A stretch of 64,000 nt of DNA. Origin: an uncultured archaeon. Its GTDB lineage: Archaea > Aenigmatarchaeota > Aenigmatarchaeia > QMZP01 > QMZT01. The stretch spans positions 5,187 through 69,186 of the forward strand of contig CAYFWU010000002.1 of NCBI GenBank assembly GCA_964347025.1, read 5' to 3'. A model generated the notes under the pieces. It searched no databases and was not told where the DNA came from. It saw only the letters and a program-made list of their open reading frames with translations. A program made the translations under genes and the position numbers. Positions 42,480-55,543 of this stretch are shown in pieces (position 1 is the first letter of the stretch; each line of letters starts with the position of its first letter).

Positions 42480-42643
42480 ACATAATTTAAAAAAGTTAAA
42501 TAAAAAGAAAAACAAAAAGGGACTAAAGGAGCTTTTACTTCCTCGTCCCTTCTTGTATCTTTCCTGTTTTGGAAGCAAGCGACGGAGCAGAACGCGAGTA
42601 AGCGCAGCTCCTTTCTGCTTAAGCTCTTTCTTGAAAAGAGCTT
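42480..42643 (-). terminator. Hairpin at the stop codon plus a downstream oligo-T tract (candidate terminator of the fibre gene)
   Basis: A 9-bp stem AAGCTCTTT/AAAGAGCTT (42621-42643) overlaps the TAA of the 1399-aa ORF. On the minus strand, 42486-42519 reads as T-runs (ttttgtttttctttttatttaactttttt). Confidence 0.3.
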
Positions 42644-45600
42644 ATCCTAACTGGATGATCACGTTGCCGCTGCTCGAGCTTATTGTCAGATTCCCGTCGC
42701 TGTCCACCGTGAAGTTCGCGTAGTCGACGTTGTCCGTATGCGTTAACACTAACTGAGAACCACTGTTGTCTAGGACCTCAAGTATTGCGTCCGGAGTTGA
42801 GTCTCCTATACCGACTTCACCGGTATTTAATATGTATATTTTCGCAGCATTATTTGTGATTAACCGCAAATTATGGTTAGTTGTGGTGCCAAAAAGCGCT
42901 TCGTTTACCCTTGCGCTGATTTTGGCTGTTACACCGTCTGTGCGGTTTACTTCAAGAACTGCATTAGCACTGCTATCTGCTATTTCCAAATCTACATTAG
43001 GATTCGACGTCCCGATGCCGACTTGATCACTTGAACCATCAACATACAATGTATCAGCTATGTTGGTAACTCCATCGCTGTCGCTGTCTATGGTTACATT
43101 ATCTGTCGTGGTCGCTCCTCTAGTCGTAACAGTCTGCAACGTATCGCTCTCGCTTCCCAATACATTGCTCAGACAGTTTCCTCCCTGTATGCAAACATCG
43201 GTCGTTGCATTGATGTAATTTGTTGAGTTTATGTTACCTACAACATCGAGTTGTTGCTGTGGATCCGTCGTCCCGATGCCGACCTTGCCGTTTGGTACCC
43301 AAATATCTCCTAAACCAGCAGTGTCGGTGGCGAATTGTATAGCATCTACTTCTGAACTGCCATCAGATGCACCGATTGAAAATGGACTGCCTGCACCATG
43401 CGGCACATCCAAATAACCATAACGTCCAGTAGCTGCCCTTGTTAGTCTGAAAGCCCCATCAGAAGTATGATTAGTGAATATCTCAAAGATGGTTTGTGGA
43501 ATAGTTGTGTTTATGCCGATGTTGCCGTCTGCATCAATGACCAAATCGCCCCACCTATCATTAGTGAAAAACCTTAACTGGTCATAGGTCTTAGCTCCTA
43601 CATAACCATTTCCGCCAAAAACTGTCATTTCGATTTCCACATCACTTGTACTATCTCGTACTGTTATTCCAGTGTCTCCAGTACTAGTTGCCAAAATGGT
43701 TGTGTATGATTGTCCTGCATCTGTTCCATTCCCAACATGTAGTAACCGATTCGGACTAGCTGTCCCGATTCCGACTTGATCACTTGAACCATCAACATAC
43801 AATGTACCAGATATGTTGGTCAATCCATCGCTGTCGCTGTCTATTGTCACATTGTCAGTAGTGGTCGCTCCTCTAGTCGTAACAGTCTGCAACGTATCTG
43901 ACTCGCTCCCCAATACATTGCTCAGACAGTTTCCTCCCTGTATGCAAACATCGGTCGAAGAGTTTATAGTTCCCGTTGCGTTTATATCACCTTTCACATC
44001 CAGCATATTTTGTGGAGTTTCCGCGTTGATGCCGACCTCACCTGAACTTAATACCGTTAACCTTATTAGATCAGATGTTGCTAATCGTAGTCCCAGATGA
44101 GGGGCAGCCGCTGTCGTGTCACCTATATCCATAAAGCCTCCTTGGACTCTTATTAATGCGAGGTTGCCCGTTTCGTTGACAAAATTTATCACAGGGGCAC
44201 TCGCATTAACATCTATTGATCCCGAATTGACTTCCAAATTTCCTGACACGTAAAGTCTGTTGCCGTCCGTCGTTGTCGAGCCTATGCTGACGTTGCCGCT
44301 CCCGTCAGGTATTATGTATACAGGTCCGTCACCGTTTGTATAGTAGGGGATTTGAATCTTTGGAACTGAAATCCAGGCCGTTTCAATTGTGCTTATATTA
44401 AGAGTATTTTTATTCCGGACCCTGAACTGGTTGCTGAACATCCCATCTGACATAGATGTGACGTTATCGGTGGCGTTTATATTACCAACTACATCCAATT
44501 CCTGCTGCGGGGTCTGCGTCCCAATGCCGACTTGATCACTTGAACCATCAACATACAAGGTATCTGCTATGTTGGTAACTCCATCACTGTCGCTGTCTAT
44601 CGTTAGATTCTGATCAGTTGTTGCTCCCCTGTCTGCTACGCTGTCCAGTGTATCGCTCTCGCTTCCAATACCATCATCCTCTGAACAGTTCCAGTAAGAG
44701 CCACTTGAAACCCATTTCAAAACCTCTCCGTTTGAACAGCTCTGGTTGAGAACAACCGTGTCCGAGCTTATCTCTATACCATTCCCTACATTCACAAGGA
44801 CGTTATCTCCACTCGTTCCCAGACCATCACCGTCATTAATAGCCAACACACCATTCGTATAGCTGATACCAGTCCCTGCAGAACCACTCGAAAGGTTCAC
44901 TCTCGGCTGAGGACCGCCGGGATCCGTGACAGTTATTCCCCAACCTTGCAATACGTCCGTGACATCTCCAGTTCCACCAGAGTCATCATCACTGGCGCAT
45001 ATCCAAGCGCTTTCCGTGTTATTCCACTTCAATACCTCTCCATCCGCGCAGCTCTGGTTCAATACGACTGTATCAGAGCTTATCTGTATACCATTACCCG
45101 TGTTCACAACTACATCATCTATATTGATTCCTAGACCAGACCCTGCAATAACTTCTACATTGTCGCCGCTGGTTTGTAAACCACTTCCCGCGTTCACAGA
45201 AAGGACACCCTGCGAAAAGGCCAGACCATCACCAGCGGAAAAGCTCGAAAGGTTCACTCTCGGCTGAGGACCACCAGAGTTCGTAACGTTTATTCCCCAA
45301 CCTTCTAACACAGCCGTGATATCACCGCCGACAACGCTCAGACAGTTTCCTCCCTGTACACAAACATCAGTTGTCGCATTGATGTAATTTGTTGAGTTTA
45401 TGTTGCCATGAACTTCTGTGTTGAGATTGTAGCTCGGGCTTCCTATCATTAACTGGTTCGCAGCGGTGGTGACAGCTTCCCTACCAAGGGCGACGCTGTT
45501 ATCATGGATGGCATCTGCCTCTGCTCCCAGTGCTGTTGCGTATTGTCCTGTCGCGTTTGCTGAGTCTCCCAATGCTGTCGCGGCAGTTGCTGTGGCTCTT

Positions 45601-46841
45601 GTATAGTCTCCTATTGATGTTGCACTATTCCCTGTTGCTTGTGCAAGTTCCCCTATTGCTGTTGCGTGGTCTACTGTTGCGTCTGAGTTGAGTCCCACTG
45701 CCGTTGAATAATCTCCTGATGCATTTGCTGAGTACCCTAGCGCTACTGCGTTTGATCCTGTTGCTTGCGCTCCATAACCCAAAGCTGCTGCGCTTACACC
45801 TGTTGCATCTGCATCGGCTCCCAAAACTACTGCGAACTTTCCTGCGGCGTTTGCATTCATTCCTATCGCTATTCCCTTTTCCTTTGGTGCATCTGAATAA
45901 CCACCCAGTGTTATTGAGTATTCACCTGTCGCATTTGCAGTATTTCCAATAGCAACTGTAGTGCCGTTTGTTGCTTGTGCATTGGTCCCTATTGCCAATG
46001 AATTGCTCCCTGTTGCTGATGCACTGTCTCCTATAAAGAAGAAGGTAGGCATGGTGATGTTCCCGCTGATGTTCATGCTCGTATTAACGTCAATAAAGGT
46101 TCCGTAATCAGTTATCGAGCTGTTGCCGAGCGTGAACTGACCTGTCCATTTTGGTATTATATTGGCTCCTCCGTTTCCTGTGACGTTACCTCCTGAGTTC
46201 TCATCGAGTGCACAATCCCAATCGTTCGCAGATGTCCTCTTAAGTATTTCACCATCAGAACACGTCAATCCATCAGGCATTATCTCATCATAGAAGATCA
46301 CGCTTCCTGTAGCATTGACATCACCAACTACATCCAGCTCCTGCTGCGGAGTTGCTGTTCCTATTCCAACTCTGTCTGATGTGTCATTAATGTACAGGAT
46401 TCCGGATAAGTTAACAGCATTTTCCACTCCCGAGGCAACTTCAAATCGGTAAGTTGGTGTACTCGTCCCTATTCCAACCCTCCCATTCAGCGAATCCACG
46501 TACAAAGTATCGGTGCTAACTGTGAAGTTCTGGGTGACGCTCAGGTTGTTCGGGAATACGAAGTATCCCGATTCGAACGTCCCTGACGATATCCTTGAAG
46601 CCGCATGACCCGGATCAGCCGGGGAGGCCTGAACTGTTGTCACCAGGGAGGTGAGACACGCGACCAAAATGATCGATAGAGCTACCGCTAAACAAGGTCG
46701 CGCTCTGGGCTTCGCCATTTCACACAAACCGGCTAACTCAGAGCCAATTTGTCTGGAGTTACTAACGAAGGTATATGCGTTCCTTAACGAACGCAGGGCC
46801 ACCTCCAGTATGGCGAAGATTACGGTTGCAAACCAGTTCAT
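42642..46841 (-). CDS. Secreted giant fibre protein: YadA-head-like 14-residue beta-roll, fibre-shaft-like repeats, and repeated (V)GIGT..P...L(D/E)V modules
   Basis: 1399 aa. The likely real start is 46718 (MAKPRARPCLAVALSIILVACLTSLVTTVQA|SP, a signal peptide). Residues ~271-470 form 13-14 exact 14-residue repeats (SLAIGTNAQATNGT / TVAIGNTANATGEY / ...). There is no C-terminal TM. Confidence 0.8.
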   Translation of the reverse strand: MNWFATVIFAILEVALRSLRNAYTFVSNSRQIGSELAGLCEMAKPRARPCLAVALSIILVACLTSLVTTVQASPADPGHAASRISSGTFESGYFVFPNNLSVTQNFTVSTDTLYVDSLNGRVGIGTSTPTYRFEVASGVENAVNLSGILYINDTSDRVGIGTATPQQELDVVGDVNATGSVIFYDEIMPDGLTCSDGEILKRTSANDWDCALDENSGGNVTGNGGANIIPKWTGQFTLGNSSITDYGTFIDVNTSMNISGNITMPTFFFIGDSASATGSNSLAIGTNAQATNGTTVAIGNTANATGEYSITLGGYSDAPKEKGIAIGMNANAAGKFAVVLGADADATGVSAAALGYGAQATGSNAVALGYSANASGDYSTAVGLNSDATVDHATAIGELAQATGNSATSIGDYTRATATAATALGDSANATGQYATALGAEADAIHDNSVALGREAVTTAANQLMIGSPSYNLNTEVHGNINSTNYINATTDVCVQGGNCLSVVGGDITAVLEGWGINVTNSGGPQPRVNLSSFSAGDGLAFSQGVLSVNAGSGLQTSGDNVEVIAGSGLGINIDDVVVNTGNGIQISSDTVVLNQSCADGEVLKWNNTESAWICASDDDSGGTGDVTDVLQGWGITVTDPGGPQPRVNLSSGSAGTGISYTNGVLAINDGDGLGTSGDNVLVNVGNGIEISSDTVVLNQSCSNGEVLKWVSSGSYWNCSEDDGIGSESDTLDSVADRGATTDQNLTIDSDSDGVTNIADTLYVDGSSDQVGIGTQTPQQELDVVGNINATDNVTSMSDGMFSNQFRVRNKNTLNISTIETAWISVPKIQIPYYTNGDGPVYIIPDGSGNVSIGSTTTDGNRLYVSGNLEVNSGSIDVNASAPVINFVNETGNLALIRVQGGFMDIGDTTAAAPHLGLRLATSDLIRLTVLSSGEVGINAETPQNMLDVKGDINATGTINSSTDVCIQGGNCLSNVLGSESDTLQTVTTRGATTTDNVTIDSDSDGLTNISGTLYVDGSSDQVGIGTASPNRLLHVGNGTDAGQSYTTILATSTGDTGITVRDSTSDVEIEMTVFGGNGYVGAKTYDQLRFFTNDRWGDLVIDADGNIGINTTIPQTIFEIFTNHTSDGAFRLTRAATGRYGYLDVPHGAGSPFSIGASDGSSEVDAIQFATDTAGLGDIWVPNGKVGIGTTDPQQQLDVVGNINSTNYINATTDVCIQGGNCLSNVLGSESDTLQTVTTRGATTTDNVTIDSDSDGVTNIADTLYVDGSSDQVGIGTSNPNVDLEIADSSANAVLEVNRTDGVTAKISARVNEALFGTTTNHNLRLITNNAAKIYILNTGEVGIGDSTPDAILEVLDNSGSQLVLTHTDNVDYANFTVDSDGNLTISSSSGNVIIQLG

Positions 46842-46887
46842 TTCTCTTCACCTCCCCTTTGTGACTTATTGGTCACCATGATATCAC

Positions 46888-48975
46888 CTAAAAGTCCGAA
46901 TAGTAATGGAAATCATTTTTGAAGTACATATTGCCGGTTGCGGCATCTATGTAACCTTGGACATTACCTCCTGAATCTTTAATTATGAAGTCATCCCCTC
47001 CCGAAGGGTTTAAGCTTTCCGTGTGTATGAACCTGCCTGTCGTTGCAAGGTTTCCGTATTCATCTATGTAGAGAACTGGCGTTCCTCCTGAATTGTGTAT
47101 TATGAAGCTGTTGTCAGGAGGAGAAAGCGAACCCTGATCATACGAATACGAGCCCTTGACATCAACATTCCCGAACTGATCAAACCTTGCGACGAACCCT
47201 GTGCTGTTTTCTACAAAAAGGCAGGGATTTGATGAATCACAGGTAGTGTTCGAGCCACCTTCGGTTATGTTCTCATCGCAGTCATTATCCACGCATAAGT
47301 ATTGCGTCGCCCCTTTCAAGCACTGCGCATCTGTCTGGCAGTCGTACCAGGTTCCCGAGCTGCACCAATCGTTATCACCATCGTTATCCACGTCTTTGTC
47401 CGTGTCTCCACTTGATGCGAAACAATTTCCGCCCTGATCTGCGGGATCATAACAATCCGATGCTACTTCATCCCAGTCATTGTCGAATGGACAACCATCT
47501 GTTGGTATACATAGATCCCAAGTGCCGCAGGTGTTGCAGATACAACCATCCGCGTTGTCGCATGCGCCGCCACCCGCCGTTCCTGCATATTCCGTGTCCT
47601 GCATGCAGTTCCCGGATGTGCATGCAGTTTCTAAATCACAATCTGAAAACCCATTGTTCCTCGTGTAAATACAATCGTTGCTTGTACAGGCTTCGGCACA
47701 ATCGGTGCCTCCGTAACATGTTTGAGAACTTTCCCCTTCTGCATACTCTCCTGCCGGGTCGCAGTGACCTGTAGTAGTACAATCTACCCAAGTGTTAGAG
47801 CTTGAACATACATCATCATCCGCGTTGGAATCAACGTCCGCTGTTCCGGAAAGTGCATAGCACGTATCAGCATCAACGCAGTCGGTCGAAGGATTGCAGC
47901 AGGCGTCTGTTGATGCTGGCGGGTTTTCTATAGAAGCCCCATATAAACCGGTTAGATAATTCTCCCCGCTGTCATCACCACAACATTCCGCAGTGGTTCC
48001 GGCATCGAAAGAGAAACCACGGGTCGGTCCCCAGCAACTCCCTCCCGAACACCCGGTCGCCCCCTCGCTGCAGTCACACCAGTTCTCATCTCCGTCCCAG
48101 CTTACAGTGTAAAGGTTAAGGGGGCCTGAAGTCCCTGAAGTTTCGTTTTCGTAGAGGTTGCAGACAGAGGGCGTATCTCCTCCGGATGCATTGGCAGTTA
48201 CATTCGCGGTGTACTGACCTTCTGTCGGGCAGAACGTGTATCCAAGCGTGTAGTTCCAGCTCTCGTTAATCCAAAATGGACTGGCGTCACATACACCTGT
48301 CTGTTCCCAGTAAGTCATTGTATACGTATCTGTAGTCCCCCCTCCTGATGGGGCTGTAACATTGACCCACATGTCAGCGACATCACAGCAGTGACAGGGA
48401 ACCACATCCGTTCCTGTGCAGTCTGCCCAGTTTTCAGCGTACACTTCCTCTCCCAGAAAAGAGAATTTCAGATAGTGATGACCTGTCTGCAGGATTCGCA
48501 GAACCAGCTTCCCTTTTTCACTGCATTCCCAGTCCCTTGCAATGATCTTTCCGTTGTCTATCCCCTCAGTCCATGTATCGCTTTTACCTTTTCCGGAGAA
48601 ATGCCTCTCCACGCTCGCTAGCTCATCGCCGCAGTAGAGCTGGAGGAACTCGACATTCCTCTGGAAATACGTCTTCTGGTAGGCCTCTATTTCCAGATCT
48701 CCCTTCCCCTTGGTCTCGAACTCTACGATCCACCTCCCCCACACTGTAGGTTTGGAAACGGGATTCAGGATCTTTATGTGTTCGGTTTCGTATTCGAGTT
48801 CGGGTTGCATCTCTCCCTTTGGGAAGATCAGGTTCATGAGCATTTCCCAGATCGTTGTTTGTTCAGCTCTAACCTCGATGGGGAATGCTGATAGGATTAG
48901 ACAGATCGTTATTCCTATTACCAGTATCATTTTCTTATTCATTTCCGCCTCCCAGAGTAATGATTGGAGCTTCAT
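46888..48975 (-). CDS. Secreted cysteine- and aspartate-rich protein (hypothetical)
   Basis: 695 aa. The likely start is 48942 (MNKKMILVIGITICLILSAFPIEVRA), overlapping the regulator stop as ATGAATAA. The centre has dozens of Cys with D-rich stretches (GDTDKDVDNDGDNDWC). The C-terminus has repeats F.I.(N/D)SGG..v.YID..GN. Confidence 0.65.
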   Translation of the reverse strand: MKLQSLLWEAEMNKKMILVIGITICLILSAFPIEVRAEQTTIWEMLMNLIFPKGEMQPELEYETEHIKILNPVSKPTVWGRWIVEFETKGKGDLEIEAYQKTYFQRNVEFLQLYCGDELASVERHFSGKGKSDTWTEGIDNGKIIARDWECSEKGKLVLRILQTGHHYLKFSFLGEEVYAENWADCTGTDVVPCHCCDVADMWVNVTAPSGGGTTDTYTMTYWEQTGVCDASPFWINESWNYTLGYTFCPTEGQYTANVTANASGGDTPSVCNLYENETSGTSGPLNLYTVSWDGDENWCDCSEGATGCSGGSCWGPTRGFSFDAGTTAECCGDDSGENYLTGLYGASIENPPASTDACCNPSTDCVDADTCYALSGTADVDSNADDDVCSSSNTWVDCTTTGHCDPAGEYAEGESSQTCYGGTDCAEACTSNDCIYTRNNGFSDCDLETACTSGNCMQDTEYAGTAGGGACDNADGCICNTCGTWDLCIPTDGCPFDNDWDEVASDCYDPADQGGNCFASSGDTDKDVDNDGDNDWCSSGTWYDCQTDAQCLKGATQYLCVDNDCDENITEGGSNTTCDSSNPCLFVENSTGFVARFDQFGNVDVKGSYSYDQGSLSPPDNSFIIHNSGGTPVLYIDEYGNLATTGRFIHTESLNPSGGDDFIIKDSGGNVQGYIDAATGNMYFKNDFHYYSDF

Positions 48976-49186
48976 TCCTTGGTTCAGCGTTTTCCGTCAG
49001 TGAAAAGAGCTTCGCCTTGCCAACATCCCTTCTCTTAACATGACCCTTCGCTTCAAGAACAGCGAGGTATTTAGAAGCTGTTACACGATGGACATTCGCC
49101 TTTTCGGCTATCTCAAGAATGGTGAGAGAAATATCGGATTTTCTTAATACGTCAATTATCAACTCCTCTAAAAAATCAGGACCCAT
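48935..49186 (-). CDS. Winged-helix transcriptional regulator (first gene of the surface gene block)
   Basis: 83 aa. TILEIAEKANVHRVTASKYLAVLEAKGHVKRRDVGKAKLFSL is an HTH plus wing. Confidence 0.75.
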   Translation of the reverse strand: MGPDFLEELIIDVLRKSDISLTILEIAEKANVHRVTASKYLAVLEAKGHVKRRDVGKAKLFSLTENAEPRNEAPIITLGGGNE

Positions 49187-49213
49187 TTACCCAACCCTTT
49201 GAAGGCGAAAGCC

Positions 49214-49266
49214 TTAGACATCAGTGACTAACATTAATGTCTATTTTTAGACATTAATGACTAACA
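49214..49266. promoter_or_regulatory. Candidate operator: a 12-bp perfect inverted repeat embedded in two 20-bp direct repeats
   Basis: CATTAATGTCTA tttt TAGACATTAATG lies at 49232-49259. TTAGACATCAGTGACTAACA (49214-33) and TTAGACATTAATGACTAACA (49247-66) are 18/20 identical and 33 bp apart. The site sits in the 165-bp divergent region between the wHTH gene and the Dpm1-like GT2 gene. Confidence 0.5.
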
Positions 49267-49351
49267 CCCCATTAATTAATTATTGGTATGAATCCTATAT
49301 ATTTTTTATCTCTATATAACTTATAGTCTGTATCTGGAAAATGGTGTTAGA

Positions 49352-50062
49352 ATGCAGAAAGTAAAGAAAGATATTGTTTCCATTGTGATACCAACATACA
49401 ACGAGAGGGAGAACATCGAGGTGCTGATACCCAGAATTTTCGACGCCCTTGAAAAGAAAAAGGTAAAGGGAGAAGTGATAATAGTTGATGACAATTCTCC
49501 TGACAAGACAGGAATTGCGGCAGAGGGATTTAAAGAGAAGTACAGGGTCAATGTTATACACAGGAAGGCTAAACTTGATTTATCTTCAGCTGTCTTAGAA
49601 GGTTTTAAAATAGCGGAGGGAGAAATAATTGGAGTGATGGATGCTGATATTTCACACCCTCCTGAATCAATACCAAAACTGGCGAAACCAATATTCAAAG
49701 GAGAGGCTGATTTTGTTGTTGGCAGCAGATACATGGAAGGAGGGGAAATAAAGGATTGGCCATTAAGCAGGATTGTTATTTCGAAATTCGCTGGTTTTAT
49801 GGCGAGAGGTTTAACTAACATTAAAGATCCGATGTCAGGCTTCTATTTCTTTAAAAGAAAGGTCATAGAATCAGTTAACCTAAAAACAACCGGATATAAG
49901 ATAGGATTGGAAATTGTTGTCAAGGGAAGATACGGGAAGTTGAAGGAGATTCCTTATACCTTCACTCAGAGAAAAACTGGAGAAAGCAAATTTAGTTTCA
50001 AGGAAGTTTTAAATTATGTCACAAACCTTTTCAAATTGTACTGTTACAAGGTAAAGAAATGA
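49352..50062 (+). CDS. GT2 glycosyltransferase, dolichyl/polyprenyl-phosphate mannose (or hexose) synthase-like
   Basis: 236 aa. VSIVIPTYNERENI, IIVDDNSPDKTG, VMDADISHPPE, VVGSRY. Confidence 0.8.
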   Translation: MQKVKKDIVSIVIPTYNERENIEVLIPRIFDALEKKKVKGEVIIVDDNSPDKTGIAAEGFKEKYRVNVIHRKAKLDLSSAVLEGFKIAEGEIIGVMDADISHPPESIPKLAKPIFKGEADFVVGSRYMEGGEIKDWPLSRIVISKFAGFMARGLTNIKDPMSGFYFFKRKVIESVNLKTTGYKIGLEIVVKGRYGKLKEIPYTFTQRKTGESKFSFKEVLNYVTNLFKLYCYKVKK

Positions 50063-50443
50063 TCACTCGATATCCAACCACTGCTTTTTCATGGCAATAC
50101 TTTCCAGACAGGCTCCCTTCAAACCCTCTTCTAGTATGTCCTCACACATTCCCTCCTCCAGCGAAACCCTTGCTATACAGAAAATCCTTATATCCCGATC
50201 GTCTATCATTTCGCATAGTTCGAGGTCCGAGTTTATCTCAGCCACGTCGGAAAGACAGAAATCCCTATTCTCTGTTTTTTCACAGTCCCCAAGCTTAGGA
50301 TATTCAGGGTATGTAGAACTAAGGCTTTGTGGTTGCTGGGTTTCATGTTCTATCTCCCCTGTTGGGAGAGTGACCTCGAACGGTATGAATAGCACGACCA
50401 AGACGACAACAATCGCTATCAGGACATAGAGAAGGACCCTCAT
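50063..50443 (-). CDS. N-terminally anchored small Cys-repeat protein (hypothetical)
   Basis: 126 aa. TM VLLYVLIAIVVVLVVLFIPF, then four to five repeats of the form ...C(L/E/I)....A. Confidence 0.4.
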   Translation of the reverse strand: MRVLLYVLIAIVVVLVVLFIPFEVTLPTGEIEHETQQPQSLSSTYPEYPKLGDCEKTENRDFCLSDVAEINSDLELCEMIDDRDIRIFCIARVSLEEGMCEDILEEGLKGACLESIAMKKQWLDIE

Positions 50444-50495
50444 AATAAAAACAGTGTTAAATAAAAATAAATAACTTTGATTTTCAATCTATAAA

Positions 50496-51545
50496 ATGCT
50501 CAAACTCTTAAGACCTGTTTTGAGAACAAAGATAAACAGGAAATTCGATAGATTCAACCTACCCTACAAGGTAAATCTGCACATAACCTATTCTTGTAAT
50601 TCCAGATGCAAAACCTGTTTCATCTGGGAGAAATACAGGAAAAAACCTGAGCTGAAAGACAGGGAGTTAAAGACAGACCAATGGAAAAGGTTTTTTGAAA
50701 ATTTAGGCGACAGACTTTACTGGGTTTCAATAGGAGGTGGAGAACCTTTCATGAGGGATGATCTGGTGGGAATAGTCTCCTCCATGAATACAAAAAATTT
50801 ATGCGTACTGAGCATTAATACCAACGGCCAGCTGACAGAAAAAATATACAAAACAATGAAAGAATTGCTGGACATGATACCTGAGAATGTCAGGGTATTT
50901 CTTGCAGTGAGCCTTCTGGGTTATGAAGATACACACAACCTTGTTTCGGGAAAGGAAAACGCATTCAAAACTTCAGAAAAAACATACAAGAAGTTGGAAT
51001 CTTTACAAACAAAATATGAGAACCTTTACCTTGAAAGGGAACTCGTGGTTAACAAATACAATGTTAATGAGATGCACAAAATAGCGGAAAAACTCAATGA
51101 AGAAAAAATTCCCTTTACACTCACATTTTCACAGGAATCAGATTATTACGATAACATGGGAAAGAACGTTGGATTATCCTCAAAAGAAAGGAAATTGGTT
51201 GCTAATATCTTAAAGAACTTGCGAATCCCCAGATACCAACGTGTAGATATAATTAAAGAGGTGTTCAAGAAAACCGCGATTAAATTCTTCGAAAGCGGAG
51301 AAATTCCGAAATGCTATTCTTCATGGTGTTCTGTTAGGATAGATCCCTACGGAAACGTCCATCCATGTATCATGAGAAACGAGCTTATAGGTAACCTTGT
51401 CGAAAATGAGATGGACCTAGAGAAGACTATGCAGAGAAGCGAAAAACTCAAGAAAATACAGGAAGAGATAAAGAAGAAGGAATGTTCCTGCTGGACTCCC
51501 TGCGAGGGTTATCAGAGTATTGTTCAAAATCTATCGTTTTTATAG
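50496..51545 (+). CDS. Radical SAM enzyme with a SPASM/twitch-like C-terminal Cys cluster
   Basis: 349 aa. CNSRCKTC is the CxxxCxxC motif; the C-terminus has CYSSWCSVRIDPYGNVHPC...CSCWTPC. Confidence 0.8.
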   Translation: MLKLLRPVLRTKINRKFDRFNLPYKVNLHITYSCNSRCKTCFIWEKYRKKPELKDRELKTDQWKRFFENLGDRLYWVSIGGGEPFMRDDLVGIVSSMNTKNLCVLSINTNGQLTEKIYKTMKELLDMIPENVRVFLAVSLLGYEDTHNLVSGKENAFKTSEKTYKKLESLQTKYENLYLERELVVNKYNVNEMHKIAEKLNEEKIPFTLTFSQESDYYDNMGKNVGLSSKERKLVANILKNLRIPRYQRVDIIKEVFKKTAIKFFESGEIPKCYSSWCSVRIDPYGNVHPCIMRNELIGNLVENEMDLEKTMQRSEKLKKIQEEIKKKECSCWTPCEGYQSIVQNLSFL

Positions 51546-51546
51546 T

Positions 51547-52878
51547 TCAGATTCTTAAAACTGTTTTCAGAAGCGTGACAAACATCTCGTAATCCCCTTT
51601 TTGTAAAAGGGTTTGTGTGTTTAAAATGTAGTTCAGGTAGTAGTATGTAAACCTCAGCTCGGTGTTTGAAACCCCTGAAAAGTTATGGTTTCTTGAAAAA
51701 TCGAATTCAATCCAGTCCTCTGTTGATTTCGGTTCAGAGAAGCCGTTTTTAACCAGGAAATTGTATAGGGAAGTTTCGGGATACGGCTGATAAAATCCTG
51801 CGTAGAGTACGCTCTTTAATCTCCTTGCAAGTTTTGCTGTTTGGGAGAGATCCTTCCTTGTTTCAGTCGGGATATCAAGCATGAAGGAAGCGACTGACCT
51901 CAAACCTATTTCATTGGAGAAGTCAAAAACGTCAATGATCTGTTTAACGCTGGTTCTTTTGTTTAGGAAATCCAGCATTCTCTGCGAACCGGATTCCACC
52001 CCGAAGAATATGTATTCGCAATCGTTTTTCTTGAATTCCTTAAGCATTTTTTTGTTAACATTGCTGACCCTAAACTGGCAGCCCCATCTTAAATCATGGC
52101 CTTTGAATAATCGAGACAATTGTATGGCTCTATCAGGATCGCTACCAATTAAATTATCCTCATAGTCTACCTTCAGGGCCTCTATTTTTGGATAAGAATT
52201 CAAAAGGTTTTCAAGGTTCTCTCTTACTCTCTTCAAAGAATAAGGTCTCCACCCTTCACAGTAGAAAACCTTGTTGTAGCAGAAGTTACAATCGTAGGGG
52301 CAACCCCGGGAAGTAGGCAGAGCCATTGTCCTAAAGCCCCCAATCCATTTGAAGGTATAATCCTTAACATCTATGATATCCCAGGGTATTGGGGACAGGG
52401 AATCGAGATTTTTGACAGGTTTTCCTGGAAGATTGGACCTTATCTTTCCATCATCCTTAAAAACTATGCCTTTCACCCTTTTCGGATTTTTCAGGTTGTT
52501 GATAAGATCACTGAAGATTAAATCTCCTTCCCCGGCAACAACGAAGTCCACGTAATCCTCTCTAATTACCTGATAAGGTAGGAGGGATGAATGAACGCCA
52601 CCCCACACCACTTTAGCCTGTGTGTTTTCCTTTGAGAATTTCGAAATTTCAACACAGGACTTCAGAGACTTTCCCGTCCAGCCAGTAAGCCCTATAACGT
52701 CGGGATCCGATTTCTTGATTTTCTTTTTAACCCGATCAATAGGAAGTTTATTGCAATCCAGGATTTCAACATCATTTCCCTCTTTCTCTGGGAGAGCCGC
52801 TACCTGAAGCAGACCCAAGGGTATTGAAGGAACCTTACCGGGAAATTTTGTTTCAGGATTTATGAGCAATATTTTCAT
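51547..52878 (-). CDS. B12-binding-domain radical SAM enzyme
   Basis: 443 aa. It has an N-terminal cobalamin-binding-like Rossmann domain (MKILLINPE...DVIGLTGWT) and TSRGCPYDCNFC. Confidence 0.8.
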   Translation of the reverse strand: MKILLINPETKFPGKVPSIPLGLLQVAALPEKEGNDVEILDCNKLPIDRVKKKIKKSDPDVIGLTGWTGKSLKSCVEISKFSKENTQAKVVWGGVHSSLLPYQVIREDYVDFVVAGEGDLIFSDLINNLKNPKRVKGIVFKDDGKIRSNLPGKPVKNLDSLSPIPWDIIDVKDYTFKWIGGFRTMALPTSRGCPYDCNFCYNKVFYCEGWRPYSLKRVRENLENLLNSYPKIEALKVDYEDNLIGSDPDRAIQLSRLFKGHDLRWGCQFRVSNVNKKMLKEFKKNDCEYIFFGVESGSQRMLDFLNKRTSVKQIIDVFDFSNEIGLRSVASFMLDIPTETRKDLSQTAKLARRLKSVLYAGFYQPYPETSLYNFLVKNGFSEPKSTEDWIEFDFSRNHNFSGVSNTELRFTYYYLNYILNTQTLLQKGDYEMFVTLLKTVLRI

Positions 52879-53938
52879 GCTTCCTCCTCAGCAGGGAATC
52901 AAATGCTATGTTCAACTCTTCCTGACAGTTCCATACACATTTCTCACAATCCAGCAAACTAGAACGTAGAGTTTCATATGAATCCGAATACCACAAATCC
53001 TTAATATCGTTATTACGTATATTTCCTATTTTATTTCCAAGCCAAAACATTCCATAACATGGATACAAATCTCCGTTTGAATCAATCGACAACGTTAAAA
53101 AACCAGCTCCACAGGCTCTTGACCTCTTCCCATTAAGAATAAAATTTTTGATCGTTTTAAGATATTTTTCAGTGTTGTCTATGATTCCTTCCTCTCTTTT
53201 TATTTTTATCGTCTTATTGATAATTTCATTGATCTGATCTTTTTGCTTTTCAGAGAAATACAAGGATTTTTTCCCAATGAAATTATGCACTGGTATGAAA
53301 CCTATTTTTTTAACTCCTAGGCCGTTTAAGAAATCAACTGTCTCCAGAACCCTGCTTGAGGTCTGAGGAGATATCAGGATATTCACTGTTATCTTCGACT
53401 TTTTGTTTGAAACATTCAACAAATTTTTGATTCCCAAGACCACTTTCTTATGAACACCTCTTCCTCCCCTCAAATTATCGAATATCTTGGGATCATCCGA
53501 ATCCAGGGAAACAGATATCGTATCAACTCCTGTGTTAACCAATTTTTTGGCCATCTTTTTTGTTATCAAGGTTCCGTTGGTGGATATGTCAAGGAGCATA
53601 CCCTTGCGCTTTACGTAAGTCATGATATCGAGTATATCCTCCCTTATTAAAGGTTCCCCCCCGGATACGGATAAGGTTGTTACTCCAAGTTCAGCAAGAT
53701 CATCAATAAGTTTGAGTATCTCTCCCTTTGACATTTCTTTGTTTTCTGATTCCCACAAATTACACATTTCACACCTGAGATTACACCTTCTGGTGATGAT
53801 CAAGGTTGTGAACAAAGGTGGGTGTTTTATTCTCCACCCTCTCAGGTAAAGATAAACACGTATAAAATTAAGAAATTTTTTAAAACCTTTGGTATGGAAA
53901 AAATCCCCCCACACATAACTTTTGTATTTTTCCCTCAT
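52853..53938 (-). CDS. Radical SAM enzyme with a SPASM-like C-terminal domain
   Basis: 361 aa. RRCNLRCEMC; C-terminal CGAGFLTLSIDSNGDLYPC...CEKCVWNC. Confidence 0.8.
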   Translation of the reverse strand: MREKYKSYVWGDFFHTKGFKKFLNFIRVYLYLRGWRIKHPPLFTTLIITRRCNLRCEMCNLWESENKEMSKGEILKLIDDLAELGVTTLSVSGGEPLIREDILDIMTYVKRKGMLLDISTNGTLITKKMAKKLVNTGVDTISVSLDSDDPKIFDNLRGGRGVHKKVVLGIKNLLNVSNKKSKITVNILISPQTSSRVLETVDFLNGLGVKKIGFIPVHNFIGKKSLYFSEKQKDQINEIINKTIKIKREEGIIDNTEKYLKTIKNFILNGKRSRACGAGFLTLSIDSNGDLYPCYGMFWLGNKIGNIRNNDIKDLWYSDSYETLRSSLLDCEKCVWNCQEELNIAFDSLLRRKHENIAHKS

Positions 53939-53939
53939 C

Positions 53940-55502
53940 TCAATCCTCAGTTTTATAGAGTGAAACGCATACCTTGCTTTCCAAAATCTTCAATTTACGT
54001 TCCTTTTCGAGCTGTTCGAAAACAGGTCTTCCATGCCCGAAAAACGTGGTGCCGCACATTGTATGGTTTATATATAAGTAATATATTTCTTCCCCACTTT
54101 CGCATCCTGATAAAGATGTACTTAGGTGTTTATCGGGGAGCAGTATTTCCATAACCATTTCAGGATTACACATACAAAAATTTGATTGGGAGTCCTCGAT
54201 AAGCAAACAGTCTTTATCCTTAACGTAACTTCCAAAATGTATTATATCATCAATAAGACAATCATGTTTTTCAAAGGCAAAAACATTTGTGCCCGAATAG
54301 AAAAGGAATAATATTAAAATAAGTACCGCAAAAACACCCGTGGTTCTAACCACGTACGGTATCCTTAGTGAAGACTTGTTCTCCGTAATCCACTCAATCA
54401 AATCCTTTGCCTTGAAAATACCATAACCCATTAAGATCGCTATCGATGGCTGCAGTGTTAACTGATAGACTTGAGGGCTGGTGTAGAGTGTCGCCCAGTA
54501 GAGACCGTAAAATAGGAAAAATAATATTATCCAGGAAATCGGGAAGATTAAATTGCGTTCCTTCAAGACAAAAAGAAGTGAAAATAAAAGGAAAAAATAG
54601 AGAATTGTTGGATAAAAACTCGGGTGTGCCAAATTTGAAGAAAGATGATACTGTATGTTTGGTATAAGATAACTCAATGAGAATGTGTAAGGACGCTCCT
54701 CATAGTGCGGATCCCTTACCGGACCATAGATATCGTCACCTGTTATATAATAATAGCTTACAGGTATCATGAAAATCAGGAATATAACCAAAGGGATTTT
54801 CAATTTTTCTATCTTTAATTTGTCTCTGTAGAGAATAAACCCTATGATGAACAAGGGTACGAATATGGAATTGTCTGTTCTTACATGGAGGGAGAACACC
54901 AAAAGGAGGAAAGATAGGAGGTAAACACCCCTCTTCTCAAGCCTGAGTGAGATTAGGAAAACAAGGATTGTTAACGTGACGAAAAAAACAGAGGTTATTT
55001 CACTTATATTGAACTTTGCGTATATGACAGACATGGGAAAAAGAGAGTATATCATGGAGGAGAACAAAGCCACATCATCCCTCTTGAACAGAATGTATGC
55101 AAGAAGGAAAACTATGAAAATTGTTAGTGAGCTAAAAACCAAATTCAGGTAAAAAATCGTATTGTAGTTTGAACCGAACAAAAAGAAACCTGTGGCTATC
55201 AGGAACGAATATCCCTTGGGATGCCAGAAATCCTCCACCCCCCGACCTTCCAGCATGTTAACTGAGGTTTTTACATAATCCCAGCACAAACCATCATAGG
55301 AGCCGCATGTAGGGGAGGCAAATCTCAGATAAGAGCCAAGAATAAAAATTAAGATGAATGCTATCCAGACATGTATTTTAATTTTTTTGAAGAGAGAGAC
55401 TATATACCTTATATTCAATAGAAATAGCACGCAAATTAAAACGAAGTTGATAAGCAGTATGTAAATCAAATTGTAGGAAAGGAAGGACTGAAAATCAAAC
55501 AT
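53940..55502 (-). CDS. Polytopic GT-C-type glycosyltransferase (ArnT/PMT, GT39/GT83-like)
   Basis: 520 aa with more than 10 predicted TM helices and a C-terminal soluble domain of about 100 aa. It belongs to a family of three paralogues in this island. Confidence 0.55.
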   Translation of the reverse strand: MFDFQSFLSYNLIYILLINFVLICVLFLLNIRYIVSLFKKIKIHVWIAFILIFILGSYLRFASPTCGSYDGLCWDYVKTSVNMLEGRGVEDFWHPKGYSFLIATGFFLFGSNYNTIFYLNLVFSSLTIFIVFLLAYILFKRDDVALFSSMIYSLFPMSVIYAKFNISEITSVFFVTLTILVFLISLRLEKRGVYLLSFLLLVFSLHVRTDNSIFVPLFIIGFILYRDKLKIEKLKIPLVIFLIFMIPVSYYYITGDDIYGPVRDPHYEERPYTFSLSYLIPNIQYHLSSNLAHPSFYPTILYFFLLFSLLFVLKERNLIFPISWIILFFLFYGLYWATLYTSPQVYQLTLQPSIAILMGYGIFKAKDLIEWITENKSSLRIPYVVRTTGVFAVLILILFLFYSGTNVFAFEKHDCLIDDIIHFGSYVKDKDCLLIEDSQSNFCMCNPEMVMEILLPDKHLSTSLSGCESGEEIYYLYINHTMCGTTFFGHGRPVFEQLEKERKLKILESKVCVSLYKTED

Positions 55503-55543
55503 CTAAACACCAATATTCTTTTAAAGATGTTAGGAATTAAAAG

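What the first reader, a model, noticed from the sequence alone, without database searches (positions are those of the whole stretch)
42642..46841. A 1399-aa archaeal fibre protein with a YadA-head-like 14-residue beta-roll and phage-fibre-like modules, G+C-rich relative to its neighbours
After a good Sec signal peptide (start 46718), residues ~271-470 (DNA ~45432-46031) form 13-14 consecutive repeats of exactly 14 residues: SLAIGTNAQATNGT, TVAIGNTANATGEY, GIAIGMNANAAGKF, AVVLGADADATGVS, AVALGYSANASGDY and so on. This is the signature periodicity and consensus of the left-handed parallel beta-roll of trimeric autotransporter adhesin heads (Hep_Hag/YadA).

There is no beta-barrel or TM anchor. 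An archaeon has no outer membrane of the Gram-negative kind.

The protein also contains:
- three Cys knots of the form C.(D/N)GE(I/V)LK......W.C followed by D-rich-SGG;
- shaft-like GxGL.....D.V.V..G.GI repeats;
- at least five modules of the form D(R/Q)VGIGT..P...L(D/E)V.G.(I/V)N.T, which are common in tail-fibre-like proteins.

Two hand-counted 60-nt lines give 35/60 G+C at 45481-45540, against 15/60 at 55381-55440 in the glycosylation island. That may reflect the Ala/Gly/Thr content, foreign origin, or both.

A YadA-type head fused to fibre modules in an archaeal secretome gene block is unusual. How it is anchored is an open question.
Basis: partly seen in the sequence, partly recalled or inferred. 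Interest (0 to 1): 0.7.

Follow-up and report, generated by a model that had tools for sequence, protein, structure and literature searches.

The report
Mosaic trimeric adhesin fibre of DPANN archaeon
This gene of a tiny symbiotic (DPANN) archaeon encodes a long, exported, probably three-chain surface fibre assembled from swappable modules, including a YadA-type adhesin head; its closest studied relatives are the fibres that the predatory bacterium Bdellovibrio uses to recognise prey, which makes it a candidate host-attachment fibre.

Summary
ORF 42642-46841(-) encodes 1399 aa with 15 uninterrupted 14-residue repeats (res 263-472). They match Pfam YadA_head (E 7e-24), are modelled at pLDDT 83-98, and hit only adhesin heads in the PDB. 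There is no beta-barrel anchor, no stalk and no C-terminal TM segment.

Corrections:
- The start is ATG 46841, behind a conserved Shine-Dalgarno, not 46718.
- The G+C excess comes from amino-acid composition. GC3 is below expectation; the A+T-rich glycosylation island is the outlier. Foreign origin is not supported.

It is not an autotransporter. The 'VGIGTxxPxxxL' modules are the capping loops of the mosaic adhesive trimer (MAT) fibres of Bdellovibrio. A profile of archaeal units hits their crystal structures (Bd2133 3e-21, Bd1334 2e-13, Bd3182 6e-13). The shaft resembles triple beta-spiral fibres, weakly.

The protein belongs to an apparently undescribed family seen here only in archaea, almost all DPANN (Aenigmarch-, Woesearch-, Pacearch-, Iainarchaeota). 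It has an invariant mature N-terminus (ADPGHxAxxIxxGTF), an invariant C-terminal tail (…GNVIIQLG) and a shuffled middle; the head is an optional cassette. It sits in a conserved chromosomal operon.

Likely function: surface adhesion or host recognition (inferred). Anchoring remains unknown. New variant of a known kind; interest 0.6.

The parts
42642..46841 (-). Complete fibre gene, 1399 codons plus stop
   Evidence: ORF list. Identical to NCBI GTN76_07835 of a Candidatus Aenigmarchaeota MAG.
46848..46857 (-). Shine-Dalgarno GGGGAGGTGA, 6 nt upstream of ATG 46841
   Evidence: Conserved in four homologous loci. It fixes the start at 46841.
46719..46841 (-). Residues 1-41: translated extension ahead of the signal peptide (MNWFATVIFAILEVALRS...)
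   Evidence: Conserved at protein level in P0002-P0005. P0002 and P0003 have no Met at position 42. Synonymous:non-synonymous codon changes are 3:5, 7:10 and 7:6. Function unknown.
46623..46718 (-). Residues 42-73: Sec-type signal peptide. Basic n-region KPRARP, 21-residue hydrophobic core, cleavage site VQA|SP read from the sequence
   Evidence: The only hydrophobic windows with mean KD >= 1.6 lie at 45-75. The same AxA|(A/P)(D/N)PGH context recurs across the family. No signal-peptide predictor was available.
46512..46622 (-). Residues 74-110: invariant mature N-terminus of the family (SPADPGHAASRISSGTFESGYFVFPNNLSV...)
   Evidence: An exhaustive search found 84 representative clusters with this motif, nearly all next to their signal peptide. 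All 12 genome hits are archaeal and almost all DPANN. This part has no PDB relative.
46272..46511 (-). Residues 111-190: two MAT-type capping-loop modules (RVGIGTSTPTYRFEV and RVGIGTATPQQELDV)
   Evidence: Motif scan, internal repeats, phrog_5906 hit.
46176..46271 (-). Residues 191-222: Cys knot 1 (CSDGEILKRTSANDWDC...DENSGG)
   Evidence: Cys positions 194/210. Repeated at 598/615 and 702/719.
45426..46055 (-). Residues 263-472: YadA-type head, 15 x 14-residue left-handed beta-roll
45327..45425 (-). Residues 473-505: family-specific neck following the head terminator (...TTAANQLMIGSPSYNLNTEVHGNINST...), with the C494-x5-C500 loop
   Evidence: The same terminator and neck occur in 12 heads of archaeal-type proteins. 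An 86-nt DNA repeat occurs three times in the gene.
44619..45326 (-). Residues 506-741: two tandem 119-aa units, each a GxGL-type shaft followed by a Cys knot
   Evidence: Self-comparison at 51-74% identity. All nine PDB matches to a profile of these units are fibre or tail-fibre proteins, mostly of the adenovirus-shaft/Afp13 type (8on5 1.7e-3, Afp13 8uut 2.8e-3), which is weak. The knots are modelled as beta-hairpins at pLDDT 67-79.
42822..44618 (-). Residues 742-1340: three cassettes of about 250 aa made of MAT-type beta-helix units bracketed by capping loops and C-x5-C necks
   Evidence: DNA repeats at 753/756-nt spacing, 91% and 67% identical. Protein repeats. Profiles hit Bdellovibrio MAT structures. 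Pairwise BLAST to a Bd2133 fragment gives 3e-5.
42645..42821 (-). Residues 1341-1399: last capping loop, conserved C-terminal domain and invariant tail ...SSSSGNVIIQLG
   Evidence: The tail is shared by most complete family members whatever precedes it. Function unknown.
46888..48975 (-). Upstream co-oriented gene: 695-aa Cys-rich secreted protein (likely start 48942), itself a mosaic with conserved ends
   Evidence: The N-terminal ~200 aa and C-terminal ~120 aa are 57-69% identical to the 1538-2119-aa LamG proteins that precede the fibre gene in L001, L002 and L005.
48935..49186 (-). 83-aa HTH-like ORF (fold judged by eye, no profile scan) at the head of the gene row
   Evidence: Orthologues 71-74% identical sit in the same position in L001 and L002. 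Their precomputed Pfam hits are weak HTH families: MarR_2 and HTH_IclR in L001, DUF7342 in L002.

Best explanation
The gene encodes an exported surface fibre of a DPANN archaeon (Aenigmarchaeota). It is rich in N-glycosylation sequons and almost certainly a homotrimer.

One chain strings together modules that, in every solved relative, exist only as trimers:
- MAT-type intertwined beta-helix units bracketed by VGIGTxxPxxxL capping loops;
- a 15-turn YadA-type beta-roll head with its own neck;
- a beta-spiral-like shaft;
- disulfide knots.

The protein belongs to a family found here only in archaea, almost all DPANN. Its two ends are fixed: the mature N-terminus ADPGHxAxxIxxGTFExGxYxFPxNL and the C-terminal tail ...GNVIIQLG. 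The middle is rebuilt by cassette duplication and exchange.

Proposed working: one conserved end holds the fibre on the archaeal envelope. By analogy with MAT fibres this is the N-terminal domain. The conserved C-terminal piece nucleates trimer folding. The variable modules, here including the YadA head, bind ligands on the host cell or another surface.

Shown: module homologies, family signatures, taxonomic spread, chromosomal synteny, internal duplications, and the absence of an autotransporter anchor.
Inferred: trimeric state, surface location, orientation, glycosylation and the adhesive, host-recognition role.
For: Export and glycosylation:
- A single signal-peptide-like segment and no other TM segment.
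- 43 N-x-S/T sequons against 23.6 +/- 4.0 in shuffles.

Module identities:
- YadA head.
- A profile built only from archaeal beta-helix units, two of them from this protein, hits MAT crystal structures: Bd2133 3.4e-21, Bd1334 2.3e-13, Bd3182 5.8e-13, 8on4 2.8e-7, Bd2439 2.4e-5.
- The MAT capping-loop consensus V-G-G/N-pi-x-x-P-x-x-x-L (PMC10769870) occurs nine times.
- All nine PDB matches to a profile of the shaft units are fibre or tail-fibre proteins, mostly of the adenovirus-shaft/Afp13 type.

Function of relatives:
- MAT fibres sit on the predator surface and bind prey glycans (PMC10769870).
- A Nanoarchaeia relative carries an FGE-sulfatase-family (PF03781) C-terminal domain next to bAvd and a reverse transcriptase. 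That is a diversity-generating retroelement locus, as expected for a ligand-binding tip.

Family and locus:
- 84 representative clusters share the N-terminal motif.
- The N- and C-terminal signatures co-occur.
- All 12 genome hits are archaeal and almost all DPANN.
- The same gene order recurs around fibres of 845-1487 aa, with or without a head.
- 753-nt tandem repeats lie inside the gene.
Against: - No experiment or expression data exist for any member.
- The trimer could not be modelled. The monomer model of the C-terminal 423 aa is poor (pLDDT 58).
- Similarity to MAT fibres is remote. Single-sequence phmmer finds nothing in the PDB, and pairwise similarity is concentrated in the capping loops.
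- MAT fibres have variable C-terminal tips, whereas this family has a conserved C-terminus. The orientation may therefore be the reverse, as in autotransporters, where the head is distal and the C-terminus is anchored.
- No anchoring partner was identified.
- The head lies in the N-terminal third, an odd place for a distal binding module if the N-terminus is cell-proximal.
- Aenigmarchaeota hosts are unknown, so 'host recognition' is an analogy.
Confidence: 0.6

Rival explanations
1. It is a surface or extracellular fibre as described, but its job is not host recognition. It could act as an envelope-associated structural element, a matrix or biofilm fibre, a link between sister cells, or an attachment to mineral or organic particles.
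For: - The neighbours are a block of secreted proteins: NosD/beta-helix, CARDB, PKD and a Cys-rich protein.
- YadA heads in bacteria also mediate autoagglutination and matrix binding (established knowledge of autotransporter adhesins).
- No host is known for this lineage.
Against: - Strong modular turnover at a conserved locus.
- A diversity-generating retroelement targets a related fibre.
- Both are more typical of recognition molecules under diversifying pressure than of structural scaffolds.
Confidence: 0.2
2. It is the tail fibre or receptor-binding protein of an integrated archaeal virus or of a tailocin-like particle, not a cellular protein.
For: - PHROG tail-fibre families match.
- The C-terminal modules have 25-30% identical relatives in tail fibres of Pelagibacter and Synechococcus phages.
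- Many relatives carry the Peptidase_S74 tail-fibre chaperone.
Against: - It has a Sec-type signal peptide, which virion proteins assembled in the cytoplasm lack (sequence).
- No capsid, terminase, portal, integrase or baseplate hit was found among the ORFs scanned across 1-59 kb.
- The same gene order, flanked by housekeeping and glycosylation genes, recurs in several genomes.
- No close phage relative exists; all hits are below 60% identity and none is an archaeal virus.
Confidence: 0.05
3. It is a bacterial trimeric autotransporter adhesin, or a fragment of one. It would be present through mis-binning or recent horizontal transfer and would work as in bacteria.
For: - Pfam and NCBIfam see only autotransporter-type similarity.
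- A JGI relative is annotated 'trimeric autotransporter adhesin'.
Against: - No YadA_anchor, stalk or ESPR.
- NCBIfam YadA scores 36 bits against a cut-off of 750.
- The gene is contiguous with archaeal genes on a 64-kb window and syntenic in other archaeal genomes.
- The nearest heads are archaeal.
- GC3 and codon usage are unremarkable.
Confidence: 0.02
4. The beta-roll and beta-helix modules serve a non-adhesive activity. Examples are ice or mineral binding, or a tailspike-like polysaccharide depolymerase acting on host envelopes.
For: - Related bacterial proteins give sub-threshold LbR_Ice_bind hits.
- An ice-binding protein (3ult) and a hyaluronidase (4ufq) appear far down the fold-search lists.
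- Trimeric beta-helices in phage tailspikes are often enzymes (established knowledge).
Against: - These hits are weak (E >= 0.045, low TM-scores).
- No catalytic family was detected.
- The solved MAT beta-helix domains are described as adhesive scaffolds.
Confidence: 0.05

Closest known systems
Mosaic adhesive trimer (MAT) fibres of Bdellovibrio bacteriovorus: Bd2133, Bd1334, Bd3182, Bd2439 (Caulton et al. 2024, PMC10769870; PDB 8ond, 8oml, 8ojn/8onb/8onc, 8ol4, 8on4)
   Same: - Exported fibres of about 1000 aa or more, built from beta-helix domains bracketed by the capping-loop motif V-G-G/N-pi-x-x-P-x-x-x-L.
- Profile-level sequence homology, E down to 3e-21.
- Mosaic evolution by domain swapping.
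- A conserved N-terminal region.
- S74 and non-S74 versions exist among relatives.
- The carrier is an organism that must attach to other cells.
   Different: - The host is an archaeon without an outer membrane.
- The N-terminal signature (ADPGH...GTF) is different, or at least uncompared.
- The C-terminus is conserved (...GNVIIQLG) rather than a variable tip.
- It contains a YadA-type head, a beta-spiral-like shaft and Cys knots. YadA is not mentioned in the main text of the MAT paper.
- Similarity is remote at the single-sequence level.
Trimeric autotransporter adhesins: YadA, BpaC, BoaA, EibD, UspA1, CbpF
   Same: The head is a left-handed parallel beta-roll of 14-residue repeats with the same consensus. 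Fold-search hits are exclusively to these heads.
   Different: - No beta-barrel anchor, no coiled-coil stalk, no ESPR and no classical neck.
- The head ends in a family-specific motif, TTAANQLMIGSxSYNLNT.
- The head is internal rather than terminal.
- The organism has no type V secretion context.
Bacterial 'tail fiber domain-containing' proteins with YadA_head plus Peptidase_S74 (for example Bacteroidota P0027, P0033, P0069), and S74 phage tail fibres
   Same: They combine YadA-type repeats with VGIGT capping-loop modules in one long secreted chain. This shows that YadA heads outside autotransporters are already known.
   Different: They end in the autocleaving S74 chaperone, which this protein lacks. 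They also lack the archaeal N- and C-terminal signatures.
Triple beta-spiral shafts: adenovirus fibre, and Afp13 fibres of the Serratia antifeeding prophage (8uut, 8uus, 8uur)
   Same: The GxGL....D.V.V..G.GI periodicity of residues 530-600 and 640-700. All nine PDB matches to a profile of the shaft units are fibre or tail-fibre proteins, mostly of this kind.
   Different: E-values are only about 1e-3. The monomer model of this stretch has low confidence. This is a resemblance, not a demonstrated membership.
Targets of diversity-generating retroelements in DPANN archaea (Nanoarchaeia P0130)
   Same: Shares the beta-helix, capping-loop and C-x5-C neck modules: 36% identity over 63% of the C-terminal 423 aa.
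   Different: P0130 ends in an FGE-sulfatase-family (PF03781) domain and sits next to bAvd and a reverse transcriptase. No reverse transcriptase was found among the scanned ORFs of this window.

Membership tests
Trimeric autotransporter adhesin (type Vc) | YadA-like head: tandem 14-residue repeats forming a left-handed parallel beta-roll | tested here: met
   Pfam PF05658 E 7.3e-24. PDB sequence hits. AF2 pLDDT 83-98 and Foldseek hits to heads only.
Trimeric autotransporter adhesin (type Vc) | C-terminal YadA_anchor beta-barrel translocator (PF03895) | tested here: not met
   No hit at E <= 0.1. The C-terminal 30 aa are not hydrophobic. NCBIfam YadA_autotrans scores 36 bits against a cut-off of 750.
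Trimeric autotransporter adhesin (type Vc) | Coiled-coil stalk and neck connectors (PF05662), and often an ESPR leader (PF13018) | tested here: not met
   No hit. The head is closed instead by the family-specific motif TTAANQLMIGSxSYNLNT.
Trimeric autotransporter adhesin (type Vc) | Outer membrane with BAM-dependent insertion | not testable with these tools
   The organism is an archaeon. Its envelope architecture cannot be read from this window.
MAT (mosaic adhesive trimer) superfamily | Capping-loop motif V-G-G/N-pi-x-x-P-x-x-x-L bracketing beta-helix domains | tested here: met
   Nine motifs. The motif definition comes from PMC10769870.
MAT (mosaic adhesive trimer) superfamily | Sequence homology to solved MAT beta-helix domains | tested here: met
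   Profile A6, built from archaeal units only: Bd2133 3.4e-21, Bd1334 2.3e-13, Bd3182 5.8e-13. Profile A1 gives 4.8e-28. Pairwise BLAST gives 3e-5. Single-sequence phmmer was negative.
MAT (mosaic adhesive trimer) superfamily | Intertwined homotrimer | not testable with these tools
   Only monomer AF2 was available. The C-terminal model has pLDDT 58.
MAT (mosaic adhesive trimer) superfamily | Invariable N-terminal domain shared with the Bdellovibrio MATs | not tested
   Full-length Bdellovibrio sequences could not be retrieved. The archaeal family has its own invariant N-terminus, which has no PDB relative.
MAT (mosaic adhesive trimer) superfamily | Variable C-terminal tip: S74 chaperone or an adhesive domain | tested here: not met
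   No Peptidase_S74. The C-terminus is conserved across the family instead of variable.
MAT (mosaic adhesive trimer) superfamily | Surface localisation and ligand binding | not testable with these tools
   Requires experiment.
Archaeal (mainly DPANN) ADPGH...QLG fibre family (delineated here) | Signal peptide followed directly by A(A/P)(D/N)PGHxAxxIxxGTFExGxYxFPxNL | tested here: met
   Residues 74-103. 84 representative clusters, motif listing, 12 archaeal genome loci.
Archaeal (mainly DPANN) ADPGH...QLG fibre family (delineated here) | Extreme C-terminal tail G(N/D)V(I/V)I(Q/R/T)LG | tested here: met
   The protein ends ...SSSSGNVIIQLG. 29 of the fetched proteins carry both signatures.
Triple beta-spiral fibre shaft (adenovirus / Afp13 type) | Repeating hairpin motif with conserved G and alternating hydrophobic residues, trimeric | tested here: inconclusive
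   All nine PDB matches to the shaft profile are fibre or tail-fibre proteins, but at E 1.7e-3 to 0.9. The model of this region has low confidence.
Target of a diversity-generating retroelement | Nearby reverse transcriptase and accessory gene, plus a template/variable repeat pair | tested here: not met
   No RVT_1 or Avd hit among the ORFs scanned across 1-59 kb. Only internal tandem repeats were found in the gene. ORFs at 59-64 kb were not scanned.

The most novel reading that the evidence does not exclude
DPANN archaea carry their own branch of the MAT and tail-fibre superfamily as their principal host-recognition organelle.
- The invariant mature N-terminus (ADPGH...GTF) and the invariant C-terminal tail (...GNVIIQLG-COOH) would form a previously unknown archaeal system for docking, assembling or sorting surface fibres. 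Candidates are strand insertion into an envelope partner or a dedicated processing pathway.
- Host range would be reprogrammed by cassette exchange at a conserved locus regulated by the small HTH-like gene.
- The YadA beta-roll would be one of the exchangeable binding modules, shared across the two prokaryotic domains and their viruses.
Probability: 0.3. Interest if true: 0.8.

Novelty: new variant of a known kind. Interest (0 to 1): 0.6.

Why it matters
How ultrasmall DPANN archaea find and hold on to their hosts is largely unknown at the molecular level.

This work links a family seen here only in archaea, almost all DPANN, to the experimentally characterised prey-recognition fibres of Bdellovibrio and to phage receptor-binding proteins. 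All members are currently annotated as hypothetical proteins. The result is a concrete and testable candidate. The family has simple sequence signatures for finding members in any genome. It sits at a conserved locus where module content can be compared with host association. Its discrete modules (head, shaft, beta-helix units) can be expressed and tested for binding.

It also shows that the YadA-type head is a free-standing fibre cassette used without type V secretion, in archaea as well as in bacteria and phages. And it exposes two conserved terminal elements whose role in anchoring or assembly on an archaeal envelope is unknown.

Tried and rejected
- Foreign origin by composition: rejected. 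GC3 and total G+C are at or below expectation once amino-acid usage is taken into account.
- Start at 46718: rejected.
- Autotransporter membership: rejected.
- Provirus: no viral hallmark genes, and the locus is syntenic in several genomes.
- AF2 monomer model of the C-terminal 423 aa: too poor to interpret on its own (pLDDT 58). Its fold-search list served only as a lead, which profile searches then confirmed.
- Single-sequence phmmer of residues 757-1399 against the PDB: nothing.
- Profile of the N-terminal motif against the PDB: only the capping-loop part matches; the influenza HA2 hits are at chance level.
Repeated with 8 sequences.
- Attempt to retrieve full-length Bdellovibrio MAT proteins with a Bd2133 fragment: returned only short proteins, among them Patescibacteria and Planctomycetota members. 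The two N-terminal domains could therefore not be compared.
- Cluster look-ups for organism names: mostly empty.
- Literature searches for YadA heads or MAT fibres in archaea or DPANN: nothing relevant.
- RNAalifold on the 60 nt upstream of the start: no convincing conserved structure.
- Phylogeny of the head: not attempted. The repeats are too short and too low in complexity to give a reliable tree; only pairwise scores are reported.

Full report
**1. What is in the sequence**

The ORF at 42642-46841 on the minus strand encodes 1399 aa. The protein is identical to a hypothetical protein of a Candidatus Aenigmarchaeota MAG in NCBI. The window is archaeal chromosome: it carries PCNA, a Rad51/RadA-like gene, topoisomerase and purine-synthesis genes.

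Printed in a 14-residue register, residues 263-472 form 15 repeats without a single insertion or deletion. Pfam YadA_head matches at E 7.3e-24, 84 bits against a cut-off of 25. YadA_anchor, YadA_stalk and ESPR do not match. Sequence search of the PDB finds the heads of BpaC, a Burkholderia Hep_Hag protein (3s6l), YadA and EibD, with E from 6e-13 to 4e-08.

An AF2 model of residues 225-745, built with 13 homologous segments, gives pLDDT 83-98 over the head, with strands recurring every 14 residues. Its 11 best Foldseek matches in the PDB are all autotransporter heads. So the head is real and of the YadA type.

The only TM-like hydrophobic segment is at residues 45-75. The twelve cysteines form six local pairs: three C-x15/16-C knots and three C-x5-C loops.

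**2.

*Start codon.* Translation starts at ATG 46841, not 46718.
- A GGGGAGGTGA Shine-Dalgarno lies 6 nt upstream and is conserved in four homologous loci.
- Two homologues have Leu or Lys instead of Met at position 42.
- Codons 1-41 carry synonymous as well as non-synonymous differences.

The protein therefore has a conserved 41-residue extension in front of a classical signal peptide. More distant relatives also have long, partly conserved leaders ahead of the hydrophobic core.

*Composition.*

| Measure | Fibre gene | Comparison |
|---|---|---|
| Total G+C | 0.471 | 0.448 in the other genes at 1-49 kb; 0.377 in the island at 49-64 kb |
| Total G+C expected from its amino acids and the codon usage of those genes | 0.497 | observed is lower |
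| GC1 / GC2 | 0.50 / 0.48 | carries the excess |
| GC3 | 0.427 | 0.490 expected; the gap is 1.1 sd of gene-to-gene scatter |
| GC3 of the head DNA | 0.338 | |

There is no compositional sign of foreign origin. The A+T-rich glycosylation island is the anomaly.

**3. Architecture**

Self-comparison and motif scans give this order:

| Residues | Element |
|---|---|
| 1-41 | leader extension |
| 42-73 | signal peptide |
| 74-110 | invariant N-terminal motif |
| 111-190 | two capping-loop modules |
| 191-222 | Cys knot |
| 263-472 | head |
| 473-505 | neck with a C-x5-C loop |
| 506-624 and 625-741 | two tandem 119-aa shaft-plus-knot units |
| 742-1340 | three cassettes of about 250 aa |
| 1341-1399 | conserved C-terminal domain ending ...SSSSGNVIIQLG |

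At DNA level the cassettes are 753/756-nt tandem repeats, 91% and 67% identical. They are therefore recent duplications. N-x-S/T sequons are enriched: 43 against 23.6 +/- 4.0 in shuffles.

**4. Identity of the non-head modules**

A low-confidence model of the C-terminal 423 aa (pLDDT 58) pointed, weakly, to the fibre proteins of Bdellovibrio bacteriovorus. Profile searches confirmed that lead.
- A profile of the C-terminal region with homologues hits Bd2133 (8ond) at 4.8e-28 and three further fibres.
- A profile made only of beta-helix units from the archaeal family, including two units of this protein, gives:

| Structure | E-value |
|---|---|
| Bd2133 | 3.4e-21 |
| Bd1334 | 2.3e-13 |
| Bd3182 | 5.8e-13 |
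| 8on4 | 2.8e-7 |
| Bd2439 | 2.4e-5 |

[quoted passage not shown] 2024 (PMC10769870). They are surface fibres of the predator, built of intertwined trimeric beta-helix domains. Those domains are bracketed by capping loops with the consensus V-G-G/N-pi-x-x-P-x-x-x-L. The family has S74 and non-S74 subfamilies, an invariable N-terminal domain thought to sit at the cell surface, and swappable adhesive tips. One tip binds prey glycans.

The similarity is remote. Single-sequence phmmer finds nothing in the PDB. Pairwise BLAST to a Bd2133 fragment aligns mainly the loops, at E 3e-5.

All nine PDB matches to a profile of the shaft units are fibre or tail-fibre proteins, mostly of the adenovirus-shaft/Afp13 type. 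They include an 'adenoviral fiber protein' entry (8on5), Afp13 fibres and adenovirus shaft chimeras. The E-values are only 1.7e-3 and weaker.

**5. The family**

An exhaustive search with the first 112 residues finds 84 representative clusters. Nearly all show the same pattern: a signal peptide, then A(A/P)(D/N)PGHxAxxIxxGTFExGxYxFPxNL. Protein lengths range from a few hundred to 3574 aa.

Most complete members end in the same tail, G(N/D)V(I/V)I(Q/R/T)LG, whatever precedes it. That includes an S74 chaperone plus coiled coil in some members.

Named members are Aenigmarchaeota, Woesearchaeota and Pacearchaeota. A scan of one genome per GTDB species with the N-terminal motif returns 12 loci, all archaeal:
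- five Aenigmatarchaeota/Aenigmarchaeota;
- four Woesearchaeota loci, three of them in one genome;
- one Pacearchaeota;
- one Iainarchaeum;
- one labelled 'uncultured archaeon';
- one 9-kb contig labelled Methanosarcinales.

None of these 12 loci has a YadA head. Heads occur in P0002, P0006, P0007, P0121 and in a sister group with an ANDPGHD N-terminus (P0008, P0010, P0110). They always end in the same terminator and neck, SVALGxxAxTTAANQLMIGSxSYNLNT. P0008 lies in an archaeal context.

The head of the window protein is closest to these archaeal heads (40-49% identity). Bacterial autotransporters follow at 34-42%. The head is thus an established optional cassette of the archaeal family, not a recent import into this genome. 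Its ultimate origin cannot be resolved from such repeats.

YadA heads joined to capping-loop modules and an S74 chaperone are also common in bacterial 'tail fiber domain-containing' proteins. The combination as such is therefore not unprecedented.

**6. Genomic context**

The fibre gene lies in a conserved gene order that recurs in other genomes:
1. a glycosyltransferase and radical-SAM island;
2. a small HTH-like gene (83 aa here; 71-74% identical in two other genomes);
3. a large secreted protein with conserved ends and a swapped middle (695 aa and Cys-rich here; 1538-2119 aa with LamG domains elsewhere);
4. the fibre (845-1487 aa, with or without a head);
5. conserved proteins of about 200 and 528 aa;
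6. further secreted beta-helix, CARDB and PKD proteins.

No viral hallmark gene was found among the ORFs scanned across 1-59 kb. No close phage relative exists.

A Nanoarchaeia relative of the C-terminal modules ends in an FGE-sulfatase-family (PF03781) domain and is followed by bAvd and a reverse transcriptase. That is a diversity-generating retroelement locus. It supports a ligand-binding role for this kind of fibre in DPANN archaea.

**7. Interpretation**

The best-supported reading is an exported, probably glycosylated, homotrimeric adhesin fibre: the archaeal counterpart of MAT and tail-fibre proteins.
- Trimerisation is inferred. Three different module types are obligate trimers in all solved relatives.
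- The role in attachment to a host or surface is inferred from the function of MAT fibres, phage fibres and YadA heads. It also rests on the modular turnover at a fixed locus and on the episymbiotic lifestyle of cultivated DPANN archaea.
- Orientation and anchoring remain open. The MAT analogy puts the invariant N-terminus at the cell. The autotransporter analogy, together with the conserved C-terminal tail, would put the C-terminus there. No partner was identified.

Rival readings are listed with their weights: a structural or matrix fibre, a viral fibre, a misplaced autotransporter, and an enzymatic or ice-binding role.

**8. Novelty**

The YadA_head hit is already precomputed for this protein in public data. 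YadA heads outside autotransporters are known. The MAT superfamily is published. Four things appear to be new:
- the link between the archaeal proteins and MAT fibres;
- the delineation of the archaeal, mainly DPANN, family by its two terminal signatures;
- the optional, neck-specific YadA cassette;
- the conserved two-gene mosaic gene row.

Full-text searches for YadA heads, tail fibres, adhesins or MAT fibres in archaea or DPANN returned nothing relevant. The MAT paper does not mention archaea or YadA in its main text. I rate this a new variant of a known kind, with interest 0.6.

Noticed in passing
window 48935-49186 (-): An 83-aa ORF that looks like a winged helix-turn-helix protein by eye (not scanned against any profile library) lies directly upstream of the 695-aa gene and the fibre gene, overlapping the former. 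Orthologues 71-74% identical occupy the same position in two other Aenigmarchaeota loci (L001, L002). Their precomputed Pfam hits are weak HTH families. A different small HTH gene precedes the fibre in L018. Likely a dedicated regulator.
   Followed up: partly
window 46888-48975 (-): The 695-aa Cys-rich secreted protein upstream of the fibre is itself a mosaic. Its N-terminal ~200 aa (57-69% identical) and C-terminal ~120 aa (61-63% identical) match the 1538-2119-aa LamG proteins that precede the fibre gene in other genomes. Only the middle differs. Two adjacent hypervariable surface genes therefore share one locus.
   Followed up: partly
window 49000-64000: The glycosylation and radical-SAM island (GT2, two PMT_2-type glycosyltransferases, B12-binding and SPASM radical-SAM enzymes) has 0.377 G+C in its genes, against 0.448 in the genes at 1-49 kb. 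It is the real compositional outlier of the window.
   Followed up: partly
window 42996-44713 and 43162-45416: DNA-level direct repeats inside the fibre gene. A 209-nt segment recurs at 753/756-nt spacing (91% and 67% identity). An 86-nt 'neck' segment occurs three times (79-86%). These are signs of recent cassette duplication.
   Followed up: yes
window 46719-46841 (-) and the N-termini of P0011, P0246, P0249, P0253: Long conserved extensions precede the signal peptide: 41 aa here, and 'GGKP'-type leaders of 40-60 aa in more distant members. They recall the extended signal peptides of autotransporters but are not homologous to them (no ESPR hit).
   Followed up: partly
window 46858-46887 and the same position in L002, L005, L006: A short inverted repeat lies between the stop of the upstream gene and the Shine-Dalgarno. 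Its sequence differs between loci: GTGAC...GTCAC here, GCGA...TCGC in L005 and L006. RNAalifold did not give a convincing common structure.
   Followed up: partly
L003 8001-14338 (Nanoarchaeia contig Ga0208373_1000078): P0130, a 714-aa relative of the fibre's C-terminal modules with an FGE-sulfatase domain, is followed by bAvd and a reverse transcriptase. This is a diversity-generating retroelement locus.
   Followed up: partly
P0260 (Woesearchaeota, MBN1386795.1), about 400 aa before its C-terminus: By eye the fibre contains a Hint/intein-like insert (CFAGDTLINIPAGY...VHNK). P0268, P0269 and P0283 appear by eye to combine an S74-type chaperone with the ...V(I/V)I(T/A/Q)LG tail. Neither was checked with a profile.
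   Followed up: no
window 23166-27368 (-) and 27470-30348 (+): A second giant ORF (1400 aa; cadherin above and Big_9 sub-threshold on per-stretch significance) lies next to a MoxR AAA+ / DUF58 / VWA trio. A MoxR-VWA pair also lies near the fibre gene in L018.
   Followed up: no
hits: MAT-type beta-helix and capping-loop modules also occur in Patescibacteria/CPR proteins (Uhrbacteria, Liptonbacteria, 'Patescibacteria group'), the bacterial counterparts of DPANN in cell size and episymbiotic lifestyle.
   Followed up: no
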